This document shows positions 13,668 to 63,470 of a DNA stretch of 64,000 nt, piece after piece. The notes under the pieces were generated by a model that saw only the letters and a list, made by a program, of their open reading frames with translations, was not told where the DNA came from and searched no databases. A program made the translations under genes and the position numbers. Positions within the stretch are counted from its first letter, which is position 1. The number at the start of each line of letters is the position of its first letter. The stretch comes from the human T2T-CHM13v2.0 reference genome, Homo sapiens: the NCBI RefSeq assembly GCF_009914755.1, contig NC_060929.1; one strand, 5' to 3'.

Positions 13668-13997
13668 ACTCTCAGGAAAAATAAATAGCAGTTGCACTTA
13701 AGAATGTCCTTTATGACCAAACAAGCCTGGGCAACATAGTAAGTTACCAGCTCTATAAAAAATGTTAAAAAAAAAAAATTGGCTAGGCCTCGTGTCACAC
13801 ACCTGACACCCAGCTACTTAGGAGGCTGAGTACTCTCAGGAAAAATAAATAGCAGTTACACTTAAGAATGTCCTTCATGACCAGACAAGCCTGGGCAACA
13901 TAGTGAGACTCCATCTCTACAAAAAAAAAAAAAAAAAAAAAAAATTAAAAAAAATGGCTAGGCCTGGTGGCACATACCAGCTACTTAGGAGGCTGAG
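13668..13997 (+). repeat. Tandem duplication (~164-bp unit) spanning the Charlie1a/Alu junction
   Basis: ACTCTCAGGAAAAATAAATAGCAG...CAGCTACTTAGGAGGCTGAG occurs at 13668-13830 and again at 13832-13997. Confidence 0.92.
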
Positions 13998-14100: not shown

Positions 14101-15235
14101 AAAAATGTCCTTTATGAAACAAAAAGTTTACTTTTTGTTTAAAATTTAATTAAACCTTAGCAATGAATACATCTTCTGTGTGAGAAAATGGAAAGTACAC
14201 ACAAAACATTTCTTTTGTATACTGAAGTACAATGGTAATCTGGAAGAAAACCATTGTGTGATTAAGTTTTGGGTTGCCTTTTTTTTTTTTTTCATACAAC
14301 AACATGTTTACCTGATAGAATGACTGATTGTTGGACAAATTATTGTTATTCAGACTTCGGTATTTGTCAGACACTTTTTCACAATTCAATGTTGTGAGCC
14401 TGTAACTTAAACAACTGATGATATTTGTTGCCAATGACATTTGAGATTTCGATTGAAAATTAAAATTTTAGAAAAACAATTTTCATCACCATTAGTTTGA
14501 CTGCTTCCAGTTCTTAAAGGCTTTTCTGATGAGATCTGATAGAACAAACAAAATTTCCTAAAATATTACATAATGATATGTCTCAATATTTGAAAGGTGA
14601 AAAATGTAGTGGCTCAGTACTTTCCAAATGACCAGTTAATTATGCTATGAAGTCATTCATGGAACAAAGATCTACTAAAGTGCAAGATGATCAAGGAATT
14701 TTAACGTAAGAGGATATGAAAAGTTTATTGATGTATTTTCAGATTTCATATTAAAACTAAACTTTAATGAACTCTCGCTTGTTAAGTTTTGGTGTAATGT
14801 TAAAGAGGAATACTAAGGGTGATCTGAAAAGATAATTAAAATAATCCTTCCTTTTTCAACTCAGATCTATGTGAAGCCAAGTTGTTTTCATAACCATCAG
14901 CCAAAAGAAAATTGATTGTTTTGGATGCAGAAGCAGATATAAAGATCCAGGCAAACATTGAAAAGATTTACAAAACTGTAAACAATGTTACTCTTTTAAC
15001 TGATTTTTTTTTAATGTGGAAAATATAATTACCTTTCCAGAAATGTAAAATATTCTGTAGTAACTTTGTTATTGATATTTTAATTACAATTATTAATTGT
15101 TAAAATTTGTATTAATTTTTCATACAGAAAATATGAAGGAAAGAAAAAAAAGCAAAAGCTTTTTGCAATCTCAATAATCTTTAACAGTGTAAAGAGGTCC
15201 CTAGACCAAACAGCTTGAGAACTGCAGCTCTAGGT

Positions 15236-15770
15236 CTATATATTCATTATACACTAATTGGATGATTATAGCAACCTTCCCAAGTGGTCTCCCTGACTTC
15301 ATTCTCATTTCAGTCTATCCATGCTGTTATCAGACTGGAATTTCTAATAGGTACAACTGATACTGGTGAGTATAGACTCACCAGTAACCAGCTTTTTAAT
15401 AATGACTCTCCGTCCATTTACGAAAAAGGCCATCTGGGTCTGGTGCCCAACTATCTTCAAAATGCACTGCAACTTCTTTGAATCACCATTTGACAGACTA
15501 GCCGACCAAATTATATCTTTGTATTGTCCTTGTGCCTGTTTATCTTAAATGCCCTTTCTTCTTTCATCCCCTGTCCAACACATCTTACCACAGACATTCA
15601 TCTTTTCCACTTCAGGACTTTTGTGAGTGACATCTTTATGAAGGCTTTCTTGCTGTTCTTGCTGCCTACAGAGAAAACCAAACTGACCACTTTCTCATTG
15701 GAGCTTTCTTTTTCTTCCTATATATGTTTCCATTATGGTATTGCTAACCCTGTACCTACTATACACAAAC
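15236..15770 (+). mobile_element. L2 fragments
   Basis: ggatgattatagcaaccttcccaagtggtctccctgacttc..ccatgctgttatcagact..ccttgtgcctg..aatgccctttc, the L2 sense pattern. Confidence 0.55.
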
Positions 15771-20803: not shown

Positions 20804-21004
20804 CTTTCTGTGACTGGCTTATTTCACTTAGCATACTGTCCTCAAGGTTCATCCATGTTGCTGCATATTGCAGAATTTCCTTCTTTTTTAAGGCTAAATA
20901 GTATTCCCTTGTTAAGTATATAGAGAATTTTCTTTATCCATTGATCTGTCTCTTAAGCTGACATTCATGTTTTTTCCCACATCTTAGCTATTGTAACCAC
21001 TGCT
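20804..21004 (-). mobile_element. L1MA internal fragment, apparent local copy of 22771-23055
   Basis: Aligns colinearly with 22771-23055 but lacks the 89-bp insertion. No poly(A) or TSD. Confidence 0.88.
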
Positions 21005-22499
21005 TCAAACAATGTTTTGATTTTCATCTATTTCTTTTCTTTCTCCTTTCAACAATTCAATTCGACAAACATTTGATGATAGCCAACTGGAGTATCGACT
21101 AGAGAAATACAAAGACCATAGAGCCTAATTTTCTTTGAAGGACAATGATGTTTTGTGGAAAATGGAAATTGAGCTATGACTTCTAAAGATAGATTCTGGA
21201 GGAACTTCCAAGTGTGTTAGCCTGAGAGAGGACGTTCCAGAAAAAGAAAGCAGAGACAATATATTGAAAAAGTTCTGAAAATTTCCCATTATTAAAAATT
21301 AGAATTACCACAGACTTTTGTAGCTGGAAAGTATCTTGGAATTCACTGATTCCATTGGTCTATCAGTCCTGTGACTAAAATCCCTGCATTTGGCAGAAAT
21401 GACTCCAGATCAGGGAAACAAGAGTGGTAGATTATGTTTCATAAAAATATATTATGTTAAAAATAAAATGTTAAAACAGTAGTCTTTTCTATTTATTTTG
21501 CATATAAGAAAGCAGCACAATGGCAATTTAATGTAAACAGAGATCCTAAGCAGAACAGGAGGACTTCATGCTATAAATGTCACTGTTAGGCCACATTTAT
21601 TGATGCAATAGAAGTCTAGAGGAAAAGGCCTGTTTTCCAATAATTTTCAAGAAAGAGAAAATAAATGTCCTTTCAAAGTCATGTGCTACTATGAGAAAGA
21701 CAAGGAAAGTCTAATTTTCCAAAGCCATTTTATATAAAGGATAAATATATACAGCCCAAAACACTACAATTTACCAATATCAAGAAAAAAATAAAGATCT
21801 ACTGACCAAATAAAAATATTCATTATACTGAGGAAACATATTTCTGAATGTTATTATAGGAACAGATTTCTTATCTACCTTCAAAAATATATTCATTATT
21901 CATCTTTTGAAAGACAATAAAGGCAGGCATACTTTATAATGAAGGTTAGCAATGAAAGAAAACTTCAAAGCTGAAGATTGGAAACTGAAAGAATTCTCAT
22001 AAGTTCAAAAAATAATTAAGTTGACCTAAATATATGATTCAGGAAAATTTATTTTGAAAGCATAGGGAGTTTCTTTTTTTTCTACTTGTGCTGGCTCTAG
22101 ATTAAGCATCACAAAAGACTCAAATGGTTAAATCAATCAAATAAAATATATGATTTTATTTCCTTACTGATTTGGCTAGTGAGTTTTGACTGAATTGATT
22201 TTCATCAGATCAAAAACATGCAGTCTTTGCTGCCCAGGGTTCTCCCCCGCCTTCTAGAGCCTGGCTTATTCTGCAGCTATGAGAATAATAGTCAGAAGCA
22301 AAGAAAAGGATAAATTCATGCTTTCTTTCAAATTTTGCAGAAAATATAAAATGTTGGCTTTTGAAAGGTAAATATTCTATTATATAGATAGCTCTTTGAA
22401 AAGTTGGCTTTTTTCAGGTTTAAAAATATTCAGTTATTTTTTAAAAATAAATAACAGTAGATATATTTTGAAATTTTAAAAAATATTTAGAGACCCCTC

Positions 22500-23964
22500 T
22501 TTTAAAAAATTGTGGTAAGAATTCTTAACATTAATTCTACCCACTTAATAAATTTCTAAGTGTAGTATACCATATTATTAACTACAGGTAAAATGTTGTA
22601 CCGCAGAACTCTAGAACTTACTTATCTTGTTTAACTGAACTTCATGCTTATGGATTAGTAACTCTCCATTTCTTCCACTTCCACCCGCTTGCGAACGCCA
22701 TCCCACTATTTGCTTCTATGAATCTGACTATTTTAGATACCTCAAATAAGTGGAATCATGTATTATTCGTCTTTCTGTGACTGGCTTATTTCACTTAGTA
22801 TACTGTCCTCAAGGTTCATCCATTTTATTGCATATTGCAATATGCATATTCCATGCAATATGCATGGATTCTACTGAATCCATGCTGCAACAGTGGTTTG
22901 TTATGCAATATGCATATTGCATATTGCAGAATTTCCTTCCTTTTTAAGGCTAAGTAGTATTCCCTTGTAGGTATATAATGCATTTTCTTTATCCGTAGAT
23001 CTCTGAAATGGACATTCAGTTTTTTTCCCACATTTTAGCTATTGTAACTAGTGCTGCAATAAACATGAGAGTGTTAATATCTCTTCGAGATCCTGATTTC
23101 AGTTCCTTTGAATAAATACCCAGAAGTGAAATTGCTGAATCATATAGTAGTTCTACTTGTAATTTTTTTAGGAATCTATAAACTATTTTTCATAGTAGCT
23201 GTACCATTTTGTATTCCTACCAACAGTGTGCAAGCATTCCAATTTCTCTGTATTCTTGCCAATACTTGTCTTTTTTTTGCTTTTAAAAATTATATCCATT
23301 ATAATATGTGAGAGATAATATCTCTGTGAGACTGTGATTTTGATTTGCATTTCTCTAACAATTGGTAACACTGAACATTTTTTCATGTACCTGTTGGTCA
23401 CTTGTATGTCTTCTTTGGAGAAATGTATACTCAAGTCCTAGTCTATTTGTTAGTTCAGTTATTAGTTTTTTATTTTTTTTTGCAACTGAGTTGTAGAGGT
23501 TCCTTATATATTTTGTACATTAGCATTTTATTAGACATAAGAATTGCAAATATGTTCTCTCATTCCATTGGATGCCTTTGACTGTGTTGATTTTTTTTCT
23601 TTGCTTTGGAAAGCTTTTCAGTTTGACATAGTCCTAATTATTTTGTTGTTGTTTTCGTTGCCTGTGCTTTTGGTGTCATATCCATGAAATCACTGAAAAA
23701 TCAATGTCATGAAGCTTTTTCCCTATATGTTCTTCAAAGAGTTTTACAGTTTCTGGTCTTACATTTAAGTCTTTCATCCATTTTGAATTGATTTTAACGG
23801 ATGGGGTAAGTTAAGGGTCAGATTTCGCTCTTTTACATGTGGATATCCAATTTGCCAATACCATTTGTTGAAGAGATCATCCTTTTCCTGTTGTGTATTC
23901 CTAGCACCCTTGTTGAAAATCAGTTTGCCACATTTACATGAAATTATTTCTGTGCTCTCTATTC
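22500..23964 (-). mobile_element. L1MA (L1MA9-like) 3' UTR and ORF2 end
   Basis: Reverse L1MA tail (ttgtggtaaga..ttaaca..tctacc..aatttctaagtgta). Minus-strand ORF 23183-23434 carries the ORF2 C-terminal motif HFSKEDIQVTNRYMKKCS. Confidence 0.9.
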
Positions 23965-24375: not shown

Positions 24376-26354
24376 TACATAGCTATATAAAAATTCATAC
24401 AACAGTTTCAACAATACAATAACATTGCAATGCTATCATTTCAGGTTGTTTGGAATTAAGGATTTCCCCCCTCTAATTTGACATTTCTGCAATATTTATG
24501 TTGACTTTATAATAAACAGGATTGTTGCCATTTATAAGAAAGTATTAGTTTATCCATAAAGTGACTCTCATTTAGTAAAATTAATAATTCTTGCAGCCAA
24601 CTAATGGGTTAAAAATGTAACATTCTGAAGTCTTTGAAATGAAATTATTGGAATATGGATTATGAAAAGATTTTGAAGCAGAAATATACTCCAATAACTT
24701 TATAAAATTGCAAGTCAATTATCTGCAAAACTAAAAACAATTATGTTTGATAATTTAGGAATATAAATTTCAGGAAATATGCAATTGTTTTCAATTTTAT
24801 CTCATAACCATATAGACTCAATTATACTGTTTTCCATTATAGAAAACTAATTAGCTTCACAAACACTGGCATGTTTTGCAGTGCAAGGTAACATAATCAG
24901 GATTTCAACTTTTAATTTTGAAGTGTCTATCTTTTGATTTACCACCTTATGCTGGATTATATTACATACAACTTTGGAAAAAATATTTTTTAAATAATTA
25001 CTTCAATCTTTCTTTTGAACATGTGTTTAGTCAGAGGAAAACAGAGTTTCACAGAACATTAAAAACTCAAAAAAGAAAGAAGAAAAATGTATCTTCTAAG
25101 ATCTAGAACAACATTTAAAATCTTCCCCATCCTACTTATTTTATCTCTGGTGAATTTTGTCCCAGGAAACTTCCCATTAAATTACAATTTTATTTCAGTT
25201 TTGAATAAAGATGATCAGGTAACAAAATAGATAAAATAAGATGAAAATGAAATAAAACACATGGCAGAGCATAAATTAGTGAGGAAGAAGGTAATAAGCT
25301 GATGAATGTTTCATTAGGCAATATCTCACCTCCACAATTGCTGCATTGCTAAATTGGACATTATTAATATAAGTAAAGTGTGACTAATGGAATATTAAAG
25401 CATAAAGACATTTTCTTGAATTCACATAGGTTCAAACAGCTAATTAGCTAAAAGACAAAGAGCAAAGAAAACCACTAATAAATATAAGTAGCAACTGATA
25501 AGGTCTCAATAAAGCTATAAAAAAGAAATTGTCAGTAAAGTGAGATAAATAATTGTAGTATAAATTGATTTTGTTCATTTATGCCTTATTCCTATGGCTG
25601 ATGATAAAATCAACACTTTCATAAATAATTTTAATCACGAATTTAGATTCAGCTATAAATAGCCTTTTTTCTGAAATATTTGAATTTCATATATACATAG
25701 AAGCTTCCATGTAAGAGTCAATATATGCACAGGGTAAATGGATGATATTTGAATTAAGATAGATTCATCTTTTCTGACATAGCATGAATCTGAAAATACA
25801 AAATTTAATTCTATAATTAAATCTCTGGAAACATTCCTTTCTGAATAAATAATCAATTTAACTAATTAGAGCACTTATACGTAAGACTTGGTATAATAAA
25901 TGTCACCTGAGCTTGGTTAACACCAAATATACTGTGATATGTTCCATATAATTTGAACCCAACTCATTTAAAAATGCAAATTCATGTGCAAGTATACAAA
26001 TTTCATAATATGAAATTTAAGCATCAAAAATATTATTTCTAAAGGGTATAAAAGTTACTAGACTAAAAAAAATTAGTGAATCCTTGCTCATTTGTACTTT
26101 CTAATATGCTGCAAAAATGTAATTTGAATTTTAAGTAGGAGTCTACTGAATCCATGCTGCAACAGTGGTTTGTTATTTTTAATTTTAAAAATTTAAAACT
26201 ATTATAAAAGTGGCAAGAAAATAAGCCATTGTTGAAAGACAAGAAGGGTTGGCGAGGATGTTTTTTAAGGAAATTAGATAAGATTAACATAGACACAAAT
26301 AGTTTCCAAAGTTTTCTAATTTTAGAAACATAGAAACTAAAGAAATCTGACTTC

Positions 26355-26496
26355 ATGCCAGTACCATACTGTTTTGTTTGCTGTGGCTTCATAATATATT
26401 TTAAAATCAAGAGGTGTAATGTCTACAGCTTTGTTGTTCTTTCTCAAGACTGATTTTTCATTTGTGGTCTCTTGTGATTCCATATGTATATTAGAA
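26355..26496 (-). mobile_element. L1M ORF2 fragment
   Basis: atgccagtaccatactgttttg..cagctttgttgttctttctcaag..gtgattccatatg, the reverse of the ORF2 segment equivalent to ~45445-45585. Confidence 0.8.
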
Positions 26497-42900: not shown

Positions 42901-46731
<3,831 letters not shown>

Positions 46732-49060: not shown

Positions 49061-49667
49061 CCCATTGGTGGGAATGTAAATTATTTCAGCCATTGTGGAA
49101 AGTAGTATGGCAATTTTTCAAAGAGCTAAATGCAGAACTACCATTTAACCCAGCAATTCCAATACTGGGTAGATAACCAGAGGAATATAAATTATTCTAC
49201 CATAAAGACACATGCGGCACTATTCACAATAGCAAAGACATGGAATCAGCCTATATGCCCATTAGTGACAGATGGAATAAAGAAAATGTGGTACATATAA
49301 ACCATGAAATACTATACAGCCATAAAAACAGAACGAGATCGTGTCTTTTGTGGGAACATAGATGGAGATGGAGGCTATTATTCTCAGCAAACTAACACAG
49401 GAACAGAAAACCAAATACCACATGTTCTCACTTGTAAGTGTGAGCTAAATGATGAGAACTTATGAACACAAAGAAGGAAACAACAGACACTGGGATCTAC
49501 TCGAGGGTGGAGGATGGGAGAAGGGAGAGGAAGAGAAAAGATAACTACTGGTTACTGGGCTTAATTCCTGTGTGATGAAATAATCTGTACAACAAACCCC
49601 ATAACATGCGTTTACCTATGTAACAAATCTTCACATGTGCCCCTGAACCTAAAATAAATGTTAAAGA
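49061..49667 (+). mobile_element. L1PA15/16-type 3' end
   Basis: ORF2 C-terminus plus 3' UTR with GAAAAGATAACTACTGGTTACTGGGCTTAAT..GATGAAATAATCTGTACAACAAACCCC..CCTAAAATAAA. Confidence 0.88.
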
Positions 49668-61992: not shown

Positions 61993-63470
61993 ATTTTCAT
62001 GCATTTATTATGCAACATTTTTGGTATTTTTAACTCATTGGATATTTACACCACTTCAGAACCTTTAAATAGGCCCCCAATACATGAAATACCCAAAATA
62101 AATAATGTGCTGCATTTACCATTTCATGATATTTCAAATAAAATAATATGAAAAATATTTTCCAATCAAAATAACAAAATACATAGTTGAAAGGATCCTC
62201 CAAGGTGACCTACAAATTAAGAAAATTTAAGACAGATGCACAGTCTGAGATTGTTGCATAAACTGCTGTTTCCTGGAAATAATATTTATAAAATTGACTG
62301 GTGTCATAAAGTAGTTAACAAATCTCCAGCTCCAATCAATGAACAAAATTATCTACAAAATCAGAGCCAATTATTGCACTTTAAAGCAAAAGTCTTATAA
62401 TTCCCAGACATCATCATCACCATTATTATTAACCAGGTTTCTCAAGCAACATTTTAAGTAATATTCTTCATCAGAAACCCCCTCCCCTCTATACACACAA
62501 GGATGATGGATGGAAGCATTTGCATTCTTAAATGAGCATGCGAGGAAATTAAAGGAAATTTTAGAATGTTGTAGACTCTAGAATCCTGCCATGCTTGGTT
62601 TCCCACTGTGCCACACTAGTCCCTGCTTTTCACAGTAAAATGACATGCACAGCAGGAAAACCAGACAAAAAGGCTCTTAATTATCAGTAATGGCCCAACA
62701 TTCAAAGATGCTAGCTTCTGCAAACCTTGGAAGTAATCATTGTTTCCATTAGTGTTTCTGTTTATCCTCAGCTTTTTAAAACATTTGTTAGCCAATTAAT
62801 GATTAATTTCCATCCTATCAGAAGGCACAGAGCATTTTAAATGAGACTTCTGCCTCTTAACACTCTGTACAGGCATTCACATATTAACAGTTCGGTAATT
62901 TATACATACCTATAAATACAAACACTTTTTTACATTATTCTTCACATATCTAAAAGAACCTATGCAGAGAGATAGTAACAAAATGTTACTTTCTCAACAT
63001 CTGTTAAATGTATTAGGAAACAAAAAATTAATTTTACTCATTTTATGTACAGATAACAAAATAGCATGTAACATTGCAGAAATTACAGTAAATTATCAAA
63101 TTACAGAAATTATTAAATTAATTTCATAAATGTTTACTCTTAACAAAGGGGTTGCTTTTCCCTGTTAAATTTTGCAATAACAATGTGGAAAATGAAACTA
63201 AAGTTTTTAAAACTTTAGGTATCATTTTGGGAATAAATAAAAAGTAAGATCAAATTACTGATAATGCACACAAGATTTCATTTCTTTAAAGGAGTAACAA
63301 AGGACCATATAGTTTTATTAAATCTCTAGGCTGAAAAGAAACTTATATTTTATGGTATTCCACTGAAAATCTCCATTTTTTTATATAAAACTTTATCAAA
63401 ATAGTTGTCCAGTCTCTAAATAAGTTCCATGACAGAAATCTCACTGCTAATAAGCAATCAGAAAGCTAAT

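What the first reader, a model, noticed from the sequence alone, without database searches (positions are those of the whole stretch)
22829..22928. 89-bp insertion built from nested perfect palindromes around an exact 35-bp copy of DNA 3.3 kb away
Seen: the L1MA sequence TTGCATATTGCA^GAATTTCC is interrupted by 22840-22928, and the sister copy at 20804-21004 lacks this insert. Positions 22870-22904 (TCTACTGAATCCATGCTGCAACAGTGGTTTGTTAT) are identical over 35 nt to unique sequence at 26142-26176. The rest is fold-back structure: an 18-bp palindrome TGCATATTGCAATATGCA (22829-22846), hairpin TCCATGCA-ATA-TGCATGGA (22850-22868), hairpin GCATGGATTC-TACT-GAATCCATGC (22862-22885) and a 20-bp palindrome ATGCAATATGCATATTGCAT (22903-22922). 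The 22862 hairpin perfects an imperfect one at the donor (GGAGTC-TACT-GAATCC). Known: templated insertions with iterative snap-back synthesis are a signature of polymerase theta-mediated end joining or MMBIR-type template switching. Inference: this is a fixed germline repair scar with several priming rounds plus a kilobase-distant template. The perfect identity inside an old diverged L1 suggests a recent, possibly lineage-specific or polymorphic event that left a cruciform-prone site.
Basis: partly seen in the sequence, partly recalled or inferred. Interest (0 to 1): 0.8.

Follow-up and report, generated by a model that had tools for sequence, protein, structure and literature searches.

The report
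Multi-step templated insertion in old L1
An 89-base patch inside an old LINE-1 remnant on human chromosome 5 was stitched together from copies of its own flank and of unique DNA 3.3 kb away, which makes it a clear scar of error-prone DNA copying and an example of a known kind of mutation, not a new element.

Summary
Window 22840-22928 is an 89-bp insert in a LINE-1 ORF2 remnant, and none of 24 L1 paralogues examined carries it. Its core, 22870-22904, is identical to 26142-26176. That 35-mer occurs only at these two places in the whole assembly, and the donor sits in otherwise unique DNA.

- A 14-bp direct duplication of the target (22826-22839 = 22915-22928) flanks the insert.
- The right palindrome is 22 bp, not 20.
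- The donor homology runs 39 nt with one mismatch.
- The L1 lies on the minus strand.

Every base of the insert can be rebuilt from templates in seven copying steps by one wandering 3' end. The steps are flank copy, fold-back, 3.3-kb jump, fold-back at the donor's own quasi-palindrome, then three more short copies, with rejoining at a terminal TGCA. Shuffled controls need about 11 steps.

The insert is therefore a complex templated insertion made by microhomology-primed template switching. The sequence cannot separate Pol theta end joining from MMBIR or fork switching. "Recent", "polymorphic" and "germline" are not shown: zero differences only bound the age at roughly 17-86 Myr, and one assembly was available. 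It is a new member of a known kind, of modest interest.

The parts
22826..22839 (.). Left copy of the 14-bp duplicated target (TATTGCATATTGCA). It is a 7-bp tandem, TATTGCA x2, built around the self-complementary TGCA.
   Evidence: identical to 22915-22928; the L1 paralogues carry this stretch once.
22840..22928 (-). The 89-bp insert. The strand given is that of the proposed nascent strand, primed from the right flank.
   Evidence: none of the 24 L1 paralogues examined carries it; it matches only itself and the donor in the whole assembly; it is rebuilt exactly from templates in 7 steps.
22829..22846 (.). Perfect 18-bp palindrome spanning the left junction. The flank TGCATATTGCA is followed by its own reverse complement.
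22850..22868 (.). Hairpin TCCATGCA-ATA-TGCATGGA (8-bp stem).
22862..22885 (.). Hairpin GCATGGATTC-TACT-GAATCCATGC (10-bp stem). This is a fold-back copy of the donor-derived tract, and it perfects the donor's quasi-palindrome.
   Evidence: step 4; 2-nt priming.
22870..22904 (+). Exact 35-nt direct copy of 26142-26176.
22902..22923 (.). It overlaps a hairpin with an 11-bp stem and 3-nt loop at 22904-22928.
22915..22928 (.). Right copy of the 14-bp duplicated target.
26138..26176 (+). Donor. 26142-26176 was copied exactly. 26138-26153 is the donor's own imperfect inverted repeat, GGAGTC-TACT-GAATCC, where copying stopped.
   Evidence: the surroundings 25900-26344 have no other match in the assembly.
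22740..23189 (-). Old LINE-1 ORF2 3' fragment that hosts the insert. The L1 sense strand is the window's minus strand.
   Evidence: the minus-strand translation of 23189-23016 matches human L1 ORF2p residues 1155-1209, E = 1.7e-11; 3347 first-look candidates in the assembly.
20804..21008 (-). Sister L1 fragment with the empty site.
   Evidence: 94% identity over 69 nt and 84% over 147 nt, contiguous across the junction.

Best explanation
The insert is the scar of one complex templated insertion. A single DNA 3' end repeatedly came off its template and re-primed on short complementary stretches.

The simplest path puts that 3' end on the window's bottom strand, primed from the right flank.
1. 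It copies the left flank for 14 nt (22839 to 22826).
2. It folds back on itself and copies 11 nt.
3. It jumps 3.3 kb and copies 34-35 nt of unique DNA (26176 to 26142).
4. It stops at that donor's own imperfect inverted repeat, folds back on what it has just made and copies 8 nt. This turns the imperfect repeat into a perfect 10-bp stem.
5-7. It makes three further short copies of 8, 4 and 14 nt of flank-derived sequence.
8. Its terminal TGCA anneals to the terminal TGCA of the left flank. Normal copying then resumes 14 nt behind where the strand first left. This gives the 14-bp duplication and loses no bases.

The self-complementary TGCA, alternating with TAT and ATA, makes the site prone to strand switches.

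Shown: the templates, the exact rebuild, the uniqueness of the donor and the empty site in paralogues. Inferred: that it was one event, the direction of synthesis and the order of the steps.

The pathway is not decided. My own judgement is about 45% replicative switching (MMBIR or fork-type), about 35% Pol theta-type end joining of a break, and the rest other or mixed.
For: - Empty site. All 29 L1 paralogue loci match the left flank and 24 of 29 match both flanks. Of those 24, 14 are exactly collinear at the junction, 5 lack 4 bp, 2 lack 7 bp and 3 have an unrelated second hit. None has an insert.
- The 89-mer matches only itself and the donor in the 3.1-Gb assembly.
- The 35-mer with up to 3 mismatches is found twice.
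- Donor surroundings 25900-26344 have no other match. All 39 other scored hits fall in 26345-26420.
- A greedy template parse needs 7 phrases on the bottom strand and 8 on the top strand. With the non-donor parts shuffled (dinucleotide-preserving) the mean is 11.0 +/- 0.8. Shuffles reaching the observed value: 0 of 2000 (bottom) and 3 of 2000 (top).
- The product rebuilt from the templates alone equals the observed bottom strand from 22928 to 22836, 93 of 93 nt.
- Priming overlaps at the switches are 0, 0, 1, 2, 3-4, 4 and 1 nt, and 4 nt at the rejoin.
- The fold-back copy lies 5' of the donor copy on the top strand. It can be copied from the nascent strand only if synthesis ran on the bottom strand (read).
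- Literature read as passages. Pol theta inserts are copies of flanks in direct or inverted orientation, made in repeated aborted rounds, and are AT-rich (PMC7165422). One base pair suffices for priming, snap-back gives reverse-complement inserts, and about 3% of traceable inserts come from distant sites (PMC5068794). Near-perfect inverted repeats are converted to perfect ones by template switching (PMC5453318). Germline templated insertions of 25 bp or more number about 100 per person and can copy from up to five templates (PMC8421209).
Against: - The path is not unique. TGCA, TAT and ATA are palindromic or mutually complementary, so several switch points are interchangeable.
- Step 2 has no priming overlap as written. 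It needs an extra 7-nt slip on the TATTGCA tandem or a switch to the complementary strand.
- Step 7 primes on 1 nt only.
- For Pol theta the event is atypical. Typical inserts are 3-30 bp with first tracts rarely above 10 bp and local templates. Here the insert is 89 bp, with a 34-35-nt tract taken from 3.3 kb away, and no bases are deleted.
- Pol theta is reported to err about once per 30 nt in such inserts. Here there are 0 errors in 89 nt under this parse.
- For the four-point template-switch model, the authors say that event types in which the return point precedes the departure point were not observed, and that multi-round or long-range events were not modelled.
- A single event as opposed to several successive events cannot be told apart without other genomes.
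- Only one assembly was available, so read support and germline status are untested.
Confidence: 0.75

Rival explanations
1. Stepwise origin. A first, simpler templated insertion (for example the donor copy) was later enlarged by separate local events at the palindromic TGCA/TAT/ATA repeats, such as slippage, fold-back duplication and quasi-palindrome correction.
For: The flank-derived parts are microsatellite-like units that could expand on their own. A 15-nt direct repeat, 22836-22850 = 22904-22918, can be read. Single short template-switch events are common in human genomes (PMC5453318 and PMC9435742, passages).
Against: All pieces are still exact copies of their templates, and no substitution separates older pieces from younger ones. 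The pieces interlock: each step uses the product of the one before it. One event is the more economical account.
Confidence: 0.12
2. The insert is not a population germline allele. It is either a change private to the CHM13 cell line or an assembly or consensus artefact at a hairpin-forming site.
For: Only one assembly could be examined. Strong hairpins are places where sequencing and consensus calling can go wrong.
Against: An artefact would not be expected to hold an exact 35-nt copy of unique DNA from 3.3 kb away together with a clean 14-bp target duplication. That the assembly rests on deep long-read coverage is recalled, not tested here. A private cell-line event would still be the same kind of templated insertion.
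Confidence: 0.08
3. A mobile-element or retrotransposition-type insertion: an L1-endonuclease or reverse-transcription event, or a small transposon with target-site duplication.
For: A 14-bp flanking duplication is in the size range of L1-type target-site duplications. That size range is recalled.
Against: There is no poly(A) tract next to either duplicate. The duplicated target is bounded by CATTT|TATT and TGCA|GAAT, which does not resemble the recalled T-rich/A L1 nicking motif. The insert is single-copy. Its ends are copies of the flank itself and not terminal repeats of an element.
Confidence: 0.02
4. The extra sequence belongs to the L1 subfamily or to its source copy.
For: None found.
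Against: None of the 24 paralogues aligned has it. The 89-mer has no other match in the assembly. Its core equals nearby unique non-L1 DNA.
Confidence: 0.01

Closest known systems
Locally templated insertions (TINS) of polymerase theta-mediated end joining, and SD-MMEJ
   Same: The insert is made of direct and inverted copies of the flank, produced in repeated aborted rounds primed on 1-4 nt. It is AT-rich, and snap-back gives reverse-complement copies (PMC7165422 and PMC5068794, passages; PMC4912351 and PMC5728401, abstracts in the listing).
   Different: Typical inserts are 3-30 bp with local templates and usually come with a deletion. Here the insert is 89 bp with a 34-35-nt tract from 3.3 kb away, there is no deletion, the target is duplicated by 14 bp, and there are no copying errors.
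MMBIR-linked templated insertions (MMB-TI) in human germline genomes
   Same: They are short insertions copied from nearby templates, often in inverted orientation at quasi-palindromes. Complex cases use up to five templates, and they occur as germline variants at about 100 per person for events of 25 bp or more (PMC8421209, passages).
   Different: That catalogue searched for templates only within 100 bp. This case needs 7 copying steps and one template 3.3 kb away.
Short-range template-switch mutations (four-point model) and classical quasi-palindrome correction
   Same: An imperfect inverted repeat (the donor's GGAGTC-TACT-GAATCC) appears in perfected form. New perfect inverted repeats arise by copying the nascent or the complementary strand (PMC5453318, passages; PMC8604942, abstract in the listing).
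   Different: The model covers one switch and one return over a short range. Its authors state that they do not model long-range or multi-round events, and that types in which the return precedes the departure were not observed. All three apply here.
Fold-back and distant templated insertions at yeast double-strand breaks
   Same: They include short fold-back inverted duplications (about 5-34 bp) primed at microhomology, inserts from distant loci, and complex inserts made of two pieces from the same locus in inverted orientation. The donor copy plus its fold-back is such a pair (PMC11724301, abstract).
   Different: That is a yeast system with induced breaks and mutant backgrounds. Here the event is natural and sits in a human assembly, with more rounds.

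Membership tests
Pol theta end-joining templated insertion (TINS) | Inserted bases are identical to flanking DNA, in direct or inverted orientation | tested here: met
   the 54 non-donor nt parse into exact flank or nascent-strand copies, and 0 of 2000 shuffles do as well on the bottom strand.
Pol theta end-joining templated insertion (TINS) | Size 3-30 bp, first synthesis tracts rarely above 10 bp, templates close to the break (PMC7165422; PMC5068794: about 85% of inserts primed within 10 bp) | tested here: not met
   The insert is 89 bp. Tracts are 14, 11, 34, 8, 8, 4 and 14 nt. One template lies 3.3 kb away. Distant sources are reported for about 3% of traceable inserts in C. elegans.
Pol theta end-joining templated insertion (TINS) | Microhomology of at least 1 nt at switch points | tested here: inconclusive
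   overlaps are 1, 2, 3-4, 4 and 1 nt, and 4 nt at the rejoin, but 0 at step 2. Step 1 is contiguous with the flank. The path is not unique.
Pol theta end-joining templated insertion (TINS) | Dependence on POLQ | not testable with these tools
   This needs genetics in cells.
MMBIR-type templated insertion (MMB-TI) | Insertion is an inverted copy of a template within 100 bp, flanked by microhomology (PMC8421209) | tested here: met
   Steps 2, 4, 5, 6 and 7 are inverted copies of sequence less than 100 nt away. The 35-nt direct copy from 3.3 kb lies outside that definition.
MMBIR-type templated insertion (MMB-TI) | Several templates used in one event | tested here: met
   There are 7 copying steps and at least 3 distinct template regions. 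That it was a single event is inferred.
Quasi-palindrome correction / four-point template-switch mutation | A near-perfect inverted repeat is converted to a perfect one by copying the nascent or the complementary strand | tested here: met
   The donor reads GGAGTC-TACT-GAATCC. The insert reads GCATGGATTC-TACT-GAATCCATGC, a perfect 10-bp stem. The single mismatch in the 39-nt homology is at that position.
Quasi-palindrome correction / four-point template-switch mutation | One short-range switch and return | tested here: not met
   At least 7 phrases are needed, and one source is 3.3 kb away.
LINE-1 ORF2 remnant (host sequence) | Translation matches L1 ORF2 protein; high copy number | tested here: met
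   the minus strand of 23189-23016 matches ORF2p residues 1155-1209 of 8sxt_A, E = 1.7e-11; 3347 first-look candidates. Pfam gave no hit. The subfamily 'L1MA' could not be tested because no repeat library is on hand.
L1-mediated (TPRT) insertion | Target-site duplication plus a poly(A) tail plus a T-rich/A nicking site (features recalled) | tested here: not met
   The 14-bp duplication is present, but there is no poly(A) and no such nicking site at either boundary.
Small transposon / MITE | Multiple copies in the genome | tested here: not met
   the 89-mer matches only itself and the donor.

The most novel reading that the evidence does not exclude
The insert is a young, human-lineage or still polymorphic germline event made in one pass. 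It would then be natural proof that a single wandering 3' end in the human germline can chain many short fold-back rounds of the Pol theta type with a kilobase-range template capture, and return behind its point of departure. Current template-switch catalogues exclude by design long-range events, multi-round events and templates more than 100 bp away. Such events could therefore be systematically under-counted in pangenome call sets.
Probability: 0.25. Interest if true: 0.5.

Novelty: new member of a known kind. Interest (0 to 1): 0.3.

Why it matters
The locus is an unusually legible natural example. All 89 bases can be traced to templates. The copying stops exactly at the donor's own imperfect hairpin, and the self-complementary TGCA explains why the strand kept switching.

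It sits in a gene-free region inside a dead L1, so no functional effect is expected.

Its value is as a worked case for methods that call complex insertions. It combines features that published scans leave out, namely more than one switch, a template beyond 100 bp, and a return behind the departure point. If other genomes show it to be polymorphic, it would also give a dated single-event example.

Tried and rejected
- **Outgroup or pangenome comparison.** No primate or second human assembly is reachable. The own-genome tool says the assembly has no relatives here. Age and polymorphism therefore stay open.
- **L1 identity by Pfam.** No family was found for three plus-strand ORF pieces, a 151-aa paralogue ORF, or four sense-strand pieces apart from sub-threshold chance hits.
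- **L1 identity by solved structures.** The 151-aa ORF gave nothing because it was the antisense strand. The sense-strand piece then matched L1 ORF2p. My first assumption that the L1 was on the plus strand was wrong.
- **Hot-spot idea**, that this L1 motif often makes the same fold-back. The 18-bp palindrome occurs at only one other place in the assembly, and that place does not look like the L1 flank when read by eye. The exact 20-mer empty site occurs at 13 other places (14 including the window's own right junction), so the denominator is small. There is no sign of recurrence.
- **Local segmental duplication linking the sister L1 and this one.** A self-comparison of 17-29 kb shows only the 205-bp L1 fragment, the donor match and the palindrome.
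- **Top-strand synthesis path.** It needs 8 phrases and needs the fold-back copy to be made before its template exists, so it is less economical.
- **Retrotransposition, transposon and L1-consensus readings.** Rejected; see the rival explanations.
- One search had too many words in a term and was re-sent. One search included a reference with stop codons and was re-sent without it.

Full report
**What is there**

The sequence ...TATTGCATATTGCA|GAATTTCC... is interrupted by 89 bp at 22840-22928. Positions 22870-22904 are identical over 35 nt to 26142-26176. 22829-22846 is a perfect 18-bp palindrome. 22850-22868 is a hairpin with an 8-bp stem, and 22862-22885 is one with a 10-bp stem.

Four points need correcting or adding.
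- The right palindrome is 22 bp (22902-22923), and it overlaps a hairpin with an 11-bp stem and 3-nt loop at 22904-22928.
- The insert is flanked by an exact 14-bp direct duplication of the target, TATTGCATATTGCA (22826-22839 = 22915-22928). No base of the target was lost, and 75 bp are new to the site.
- Homology with the donor runs 39 nt with one mismatch (22866-22904 against 26138-26176). The mismatch is the base that makes the donor's imperfect inverted repeat GGAGTC-TACT-GAATCC perfect in the insert.
- The host repeat lies on the minus strand.

**Is it more than chance, and is the 35-mer unique?**

The whole assembly that holds the window (3.1 Gb, 24 contigs) could be searched.
- The 35-mer, allowing up to 3 mismatches, occurs twice on the forward strand and not at all on the reverse. 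The control pattern gives 0.
- The 89-mer matches only itself and the donor.
- A 521-nt stretch around the donor has one full-length match, itself. All 39 other scored hits fall in its last 76 nt (26345-26420). The 35-mer therefore sits inside otherwise unique DNA.
- In the window there are 12 exact repeats of 24 nt or more that are not low-complexity. Of the other eleven, two are the sister-L1 match to this same fragment; by eye the rest look like Alu- or L1-type repeats, some of them in stretches the annotation masks.
- The only other perfect palindromes of 18 bp or more in the window are (TA)n runs. Twenty dinucleotide shuffles of the window gave 0-4 such palindromes, with a median of 0.
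- As single-stranded DNA, 22820-22935 folds at -30.9 kcal/mol, z = -5.99, and 0 of 200 shuffles fold as well.

**Host sequence and empty site**

The minus-strand translation of 23189-23016 matches residues 1155-1209 of human LINE-1 ORF2 protein (8sxt_A, E = 1.7e-11). The insertion point lies about 32 codons further along the L1 sense strand, which is an inference from the coordinates. Pfam gave nothing. The subfamily name 'L1MA' could not be tested.

A 301-nt query across the site found 3347 first-look candidates in the assembly, and 29 paralogue loci were fetched.
- All 29 match the left flank and 24 match both flanks.
- Of the 24, 14 are exactly collinear at the junction, 5 lack 4 bp, 2 lack 7 bp and 3 gave an unrelated second hit.
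- In the multiple alignment none of the 24 has an insert, and the 14-mer region is present once.
- Two paralogues, L011 and L034, share the window's ATTGCATATTGCA variant. Both copies of the duplication carry the variant, so the right copy was taken from this locus and not from another L1.
- The sister fragment at 20804-21008 is an ordinary paralogue, with 94% identity over 69 nt and 84% over 147 nt.

**Anatomy**

Write X = TGCA (self-complementary), t = TAT and a = ATA (reverse complements of each other). The ancestral site is then t X t X | GAATTT. The derived top strand is:

t X t X a X t TCCA X a X TGGA TTC TACT GAA TCCA TGC ...(donor)... GTTA X a X t X t X GAATTT

Every X is a possible point for switching strands, and each switch turns t into a.

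**Can it be rebuilt from templates?**

A greedy longest-match parse was run. The allowed templates were 60 nt of each flank, the donor region, and the strand already made, all in both orientations. The parse needs 7 phrases reading the bottom strand from the right flank and 8 reading the top strand from the left. With the 35-mer kept and the 30-nt and 24-nt non-donor parts shuffled (dinucleotide-preserving), the mean is 11.0 +/- 0.8 phrases. Shuffles reaching the observed value number 0 of 2000 for the bottom strand and 3 of 2000 for the top strand.

An explicit path was assembled in a script from the templates alone and compared with the sequence:

| Step | Copied | Template |
|---|---|---|
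| 1 | 14 nt | left flank, 22839 to 22826 |
| 2 | 11 nt | fold-back on step 1 |
| 3 | 34 nt | donor, 26175 to 26142 |
| 4 | 8 nt | fold-back on step 3 |
| 5 | 8 nt | flank-derived sequence |
| 6 | 4 nt | flank-derived sequence |
| 7 | 14 nt | flank-derived sequence |
| 8 | rejoin | terminal TGCA overlaps the end of the left flank |

The rebuilt strand equals the observed bottom strand from 22928 to 22836, 93 of 93 nt. Priming overlaps are 0 (step 1, contiguous with the flank), 0, 1, 2, 3-4, 4 and 1 nt, and 4 nt at the rejoin.

**Direction and mechanism (inferred)**

The fold-back copy of the donor tract (GCATGGATTC) lies to the left of the donor copy. It can be copied from newly made DNA only if synthesis ran leftwards on the bottom strand, so that direction is preferred.

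Copying of the donor ends exactly at the donor's own quasi-palindrome. That is where a nascent strand can fold on itself, and this is the classical route by which a near-perfect inverted repeat becomes perfect (PMC5453318, passages).

The return of the strand 14 nt behind its point of departure explains both the duplication and the absence of any deletion.

The weak points are step 2, which has no priming overlap as written and needs an extra 7-nt slip on the TATTGCA tandem or a switch to the complementary strand, and the fact that the path is not unique.

**Which pathway?**

The short, AT-rich, direct and inverted flank copies made in repeated aborted rounds, with 1-4 nt of priming, fit Pol theta-type end joining (PMC7165422 and PMC5068794, passages). 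Against that pathway:
- Such inserts are described as 3-30 bp, with first tracts rarely above 10 bp and local templates.
- They usually come with deletions.
- Pol theta is reported to err about once per 30 nt in such inserts.

Here the insert is 89 bp, one tract is 34-35 nt from 3.3 kb away, nothing is deleted, and there are no errors under this parse. About 3% of traceable inserts in C. elegans do come from distant sites.

Replicative switching of the MMBIR or fork type accounts naturally for the return behind the departure point. It is also known to leave germline templated insertions in people: about 100 per person for events of 25 bp or more, some at quasi-palindromes, some copying from up to five templates. 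That scan only looked for templates within 100 bp (PMC8421209, passages).

Yeast breaks show the same ingredients, namely fold-back copies of 5-34 bp, distant inserts, and paired inverted pieces from one locus (PMC11724301, abstract).

I put replicative switching slightly ahead (about 45% against 35%). The sequence alone does not decide.

**Age**

With no differences between copies and templates, a Poisson bound was computed. It uses recalled neutral rates of 0.5-1.0e-9 per site per year. The 95% upper limits are:
- 43-86 Myr, counting only the 35-mer and its donor (70 sites).
- 17-34 Myr, counting the whole insert and its templates (178 sites).

The second count is partly circular, because the parse adapts to the sequence. 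The event is clearly younger than the L1 fragment, whose flanks are 84-94% identical to their paralogues. It could still be shared by apes, or be private to this assembly's source.

**Rivals**

Stepwise growth, a private or artefactual origin, retrotransposition or a small transposon, and an L1-family variant were considered. The last two are refuted. The first two need other genomes or raw reads.

A hot-spot idea was also checked. The 18-bp palindrome occurs at one other place in the assembly, which by eye is not the L1 flank. The exact 20-mer empty site exists at only 13 other places. Recurrence at this motif is therefore not seen, but the test is weak.

**Verdict**

The claims that the event is recent, polymorphic, germline-fixed and cruciform-prone are untested.

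This is a new, very legible member of a known kind of mutation, in a gene-free region inside a dead L1. Interest is modest (0.3). It would rise somewhat if other genomes showed a young single-step event. Published template-switch scans exclude long-range and multi-round cases by design.

Noticed in passing
L036:1460-1520 (G000:C24:27247213-27247230 and flanks): This is the only other place in the assembly with the same 18-bp palindrome, TGCATATTGCAATATGCA. By eye it is not the L1 flank. It sits next to another inverted repeat with 14-nt arms (GCATATTGGGATGC ... GCATCCCAATATGC) and looks like a second, independent fold-back structure.
   Followed up: partly
window 25998-26018: An AT-rich near-palindrome, AAATTTCATA-A-TATGAAATTT (10-bp stem, 1-nt loop), lies about 125 bp upstream of the donor. 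Whether it bears on the choice of donor is unknown.
   Followed up: no
window 20804-21008: A 205-bp L1 ORF2 fragment in the same orientation lies 2 kb upstream of the host L1 fragment. It is 94% and 84% identical over its two parts, like any other paralogue. No wider local duplication links the two.
   Followed up: partly
window 13668-13693 and 13832-13857: An exact 26-nt direct repeat with copies 164 bp apart (ACTCTCAGGAAAAATAAATAGCAGTT). Its origin was not examined.
   Followed up: no
window 46663-46698 and 49380-49415: An exact 36-nt direct repeat between two stretches that the annotation lists as masked repeats. It is probably two copies of one interspersed repeat.
   Followed up: no
window 14117-14140, 15361-15386, 63198-63218: These are the other hairpins in the window with perfect stems of 10-11 bp. 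They were not examined.
   Followed up: no
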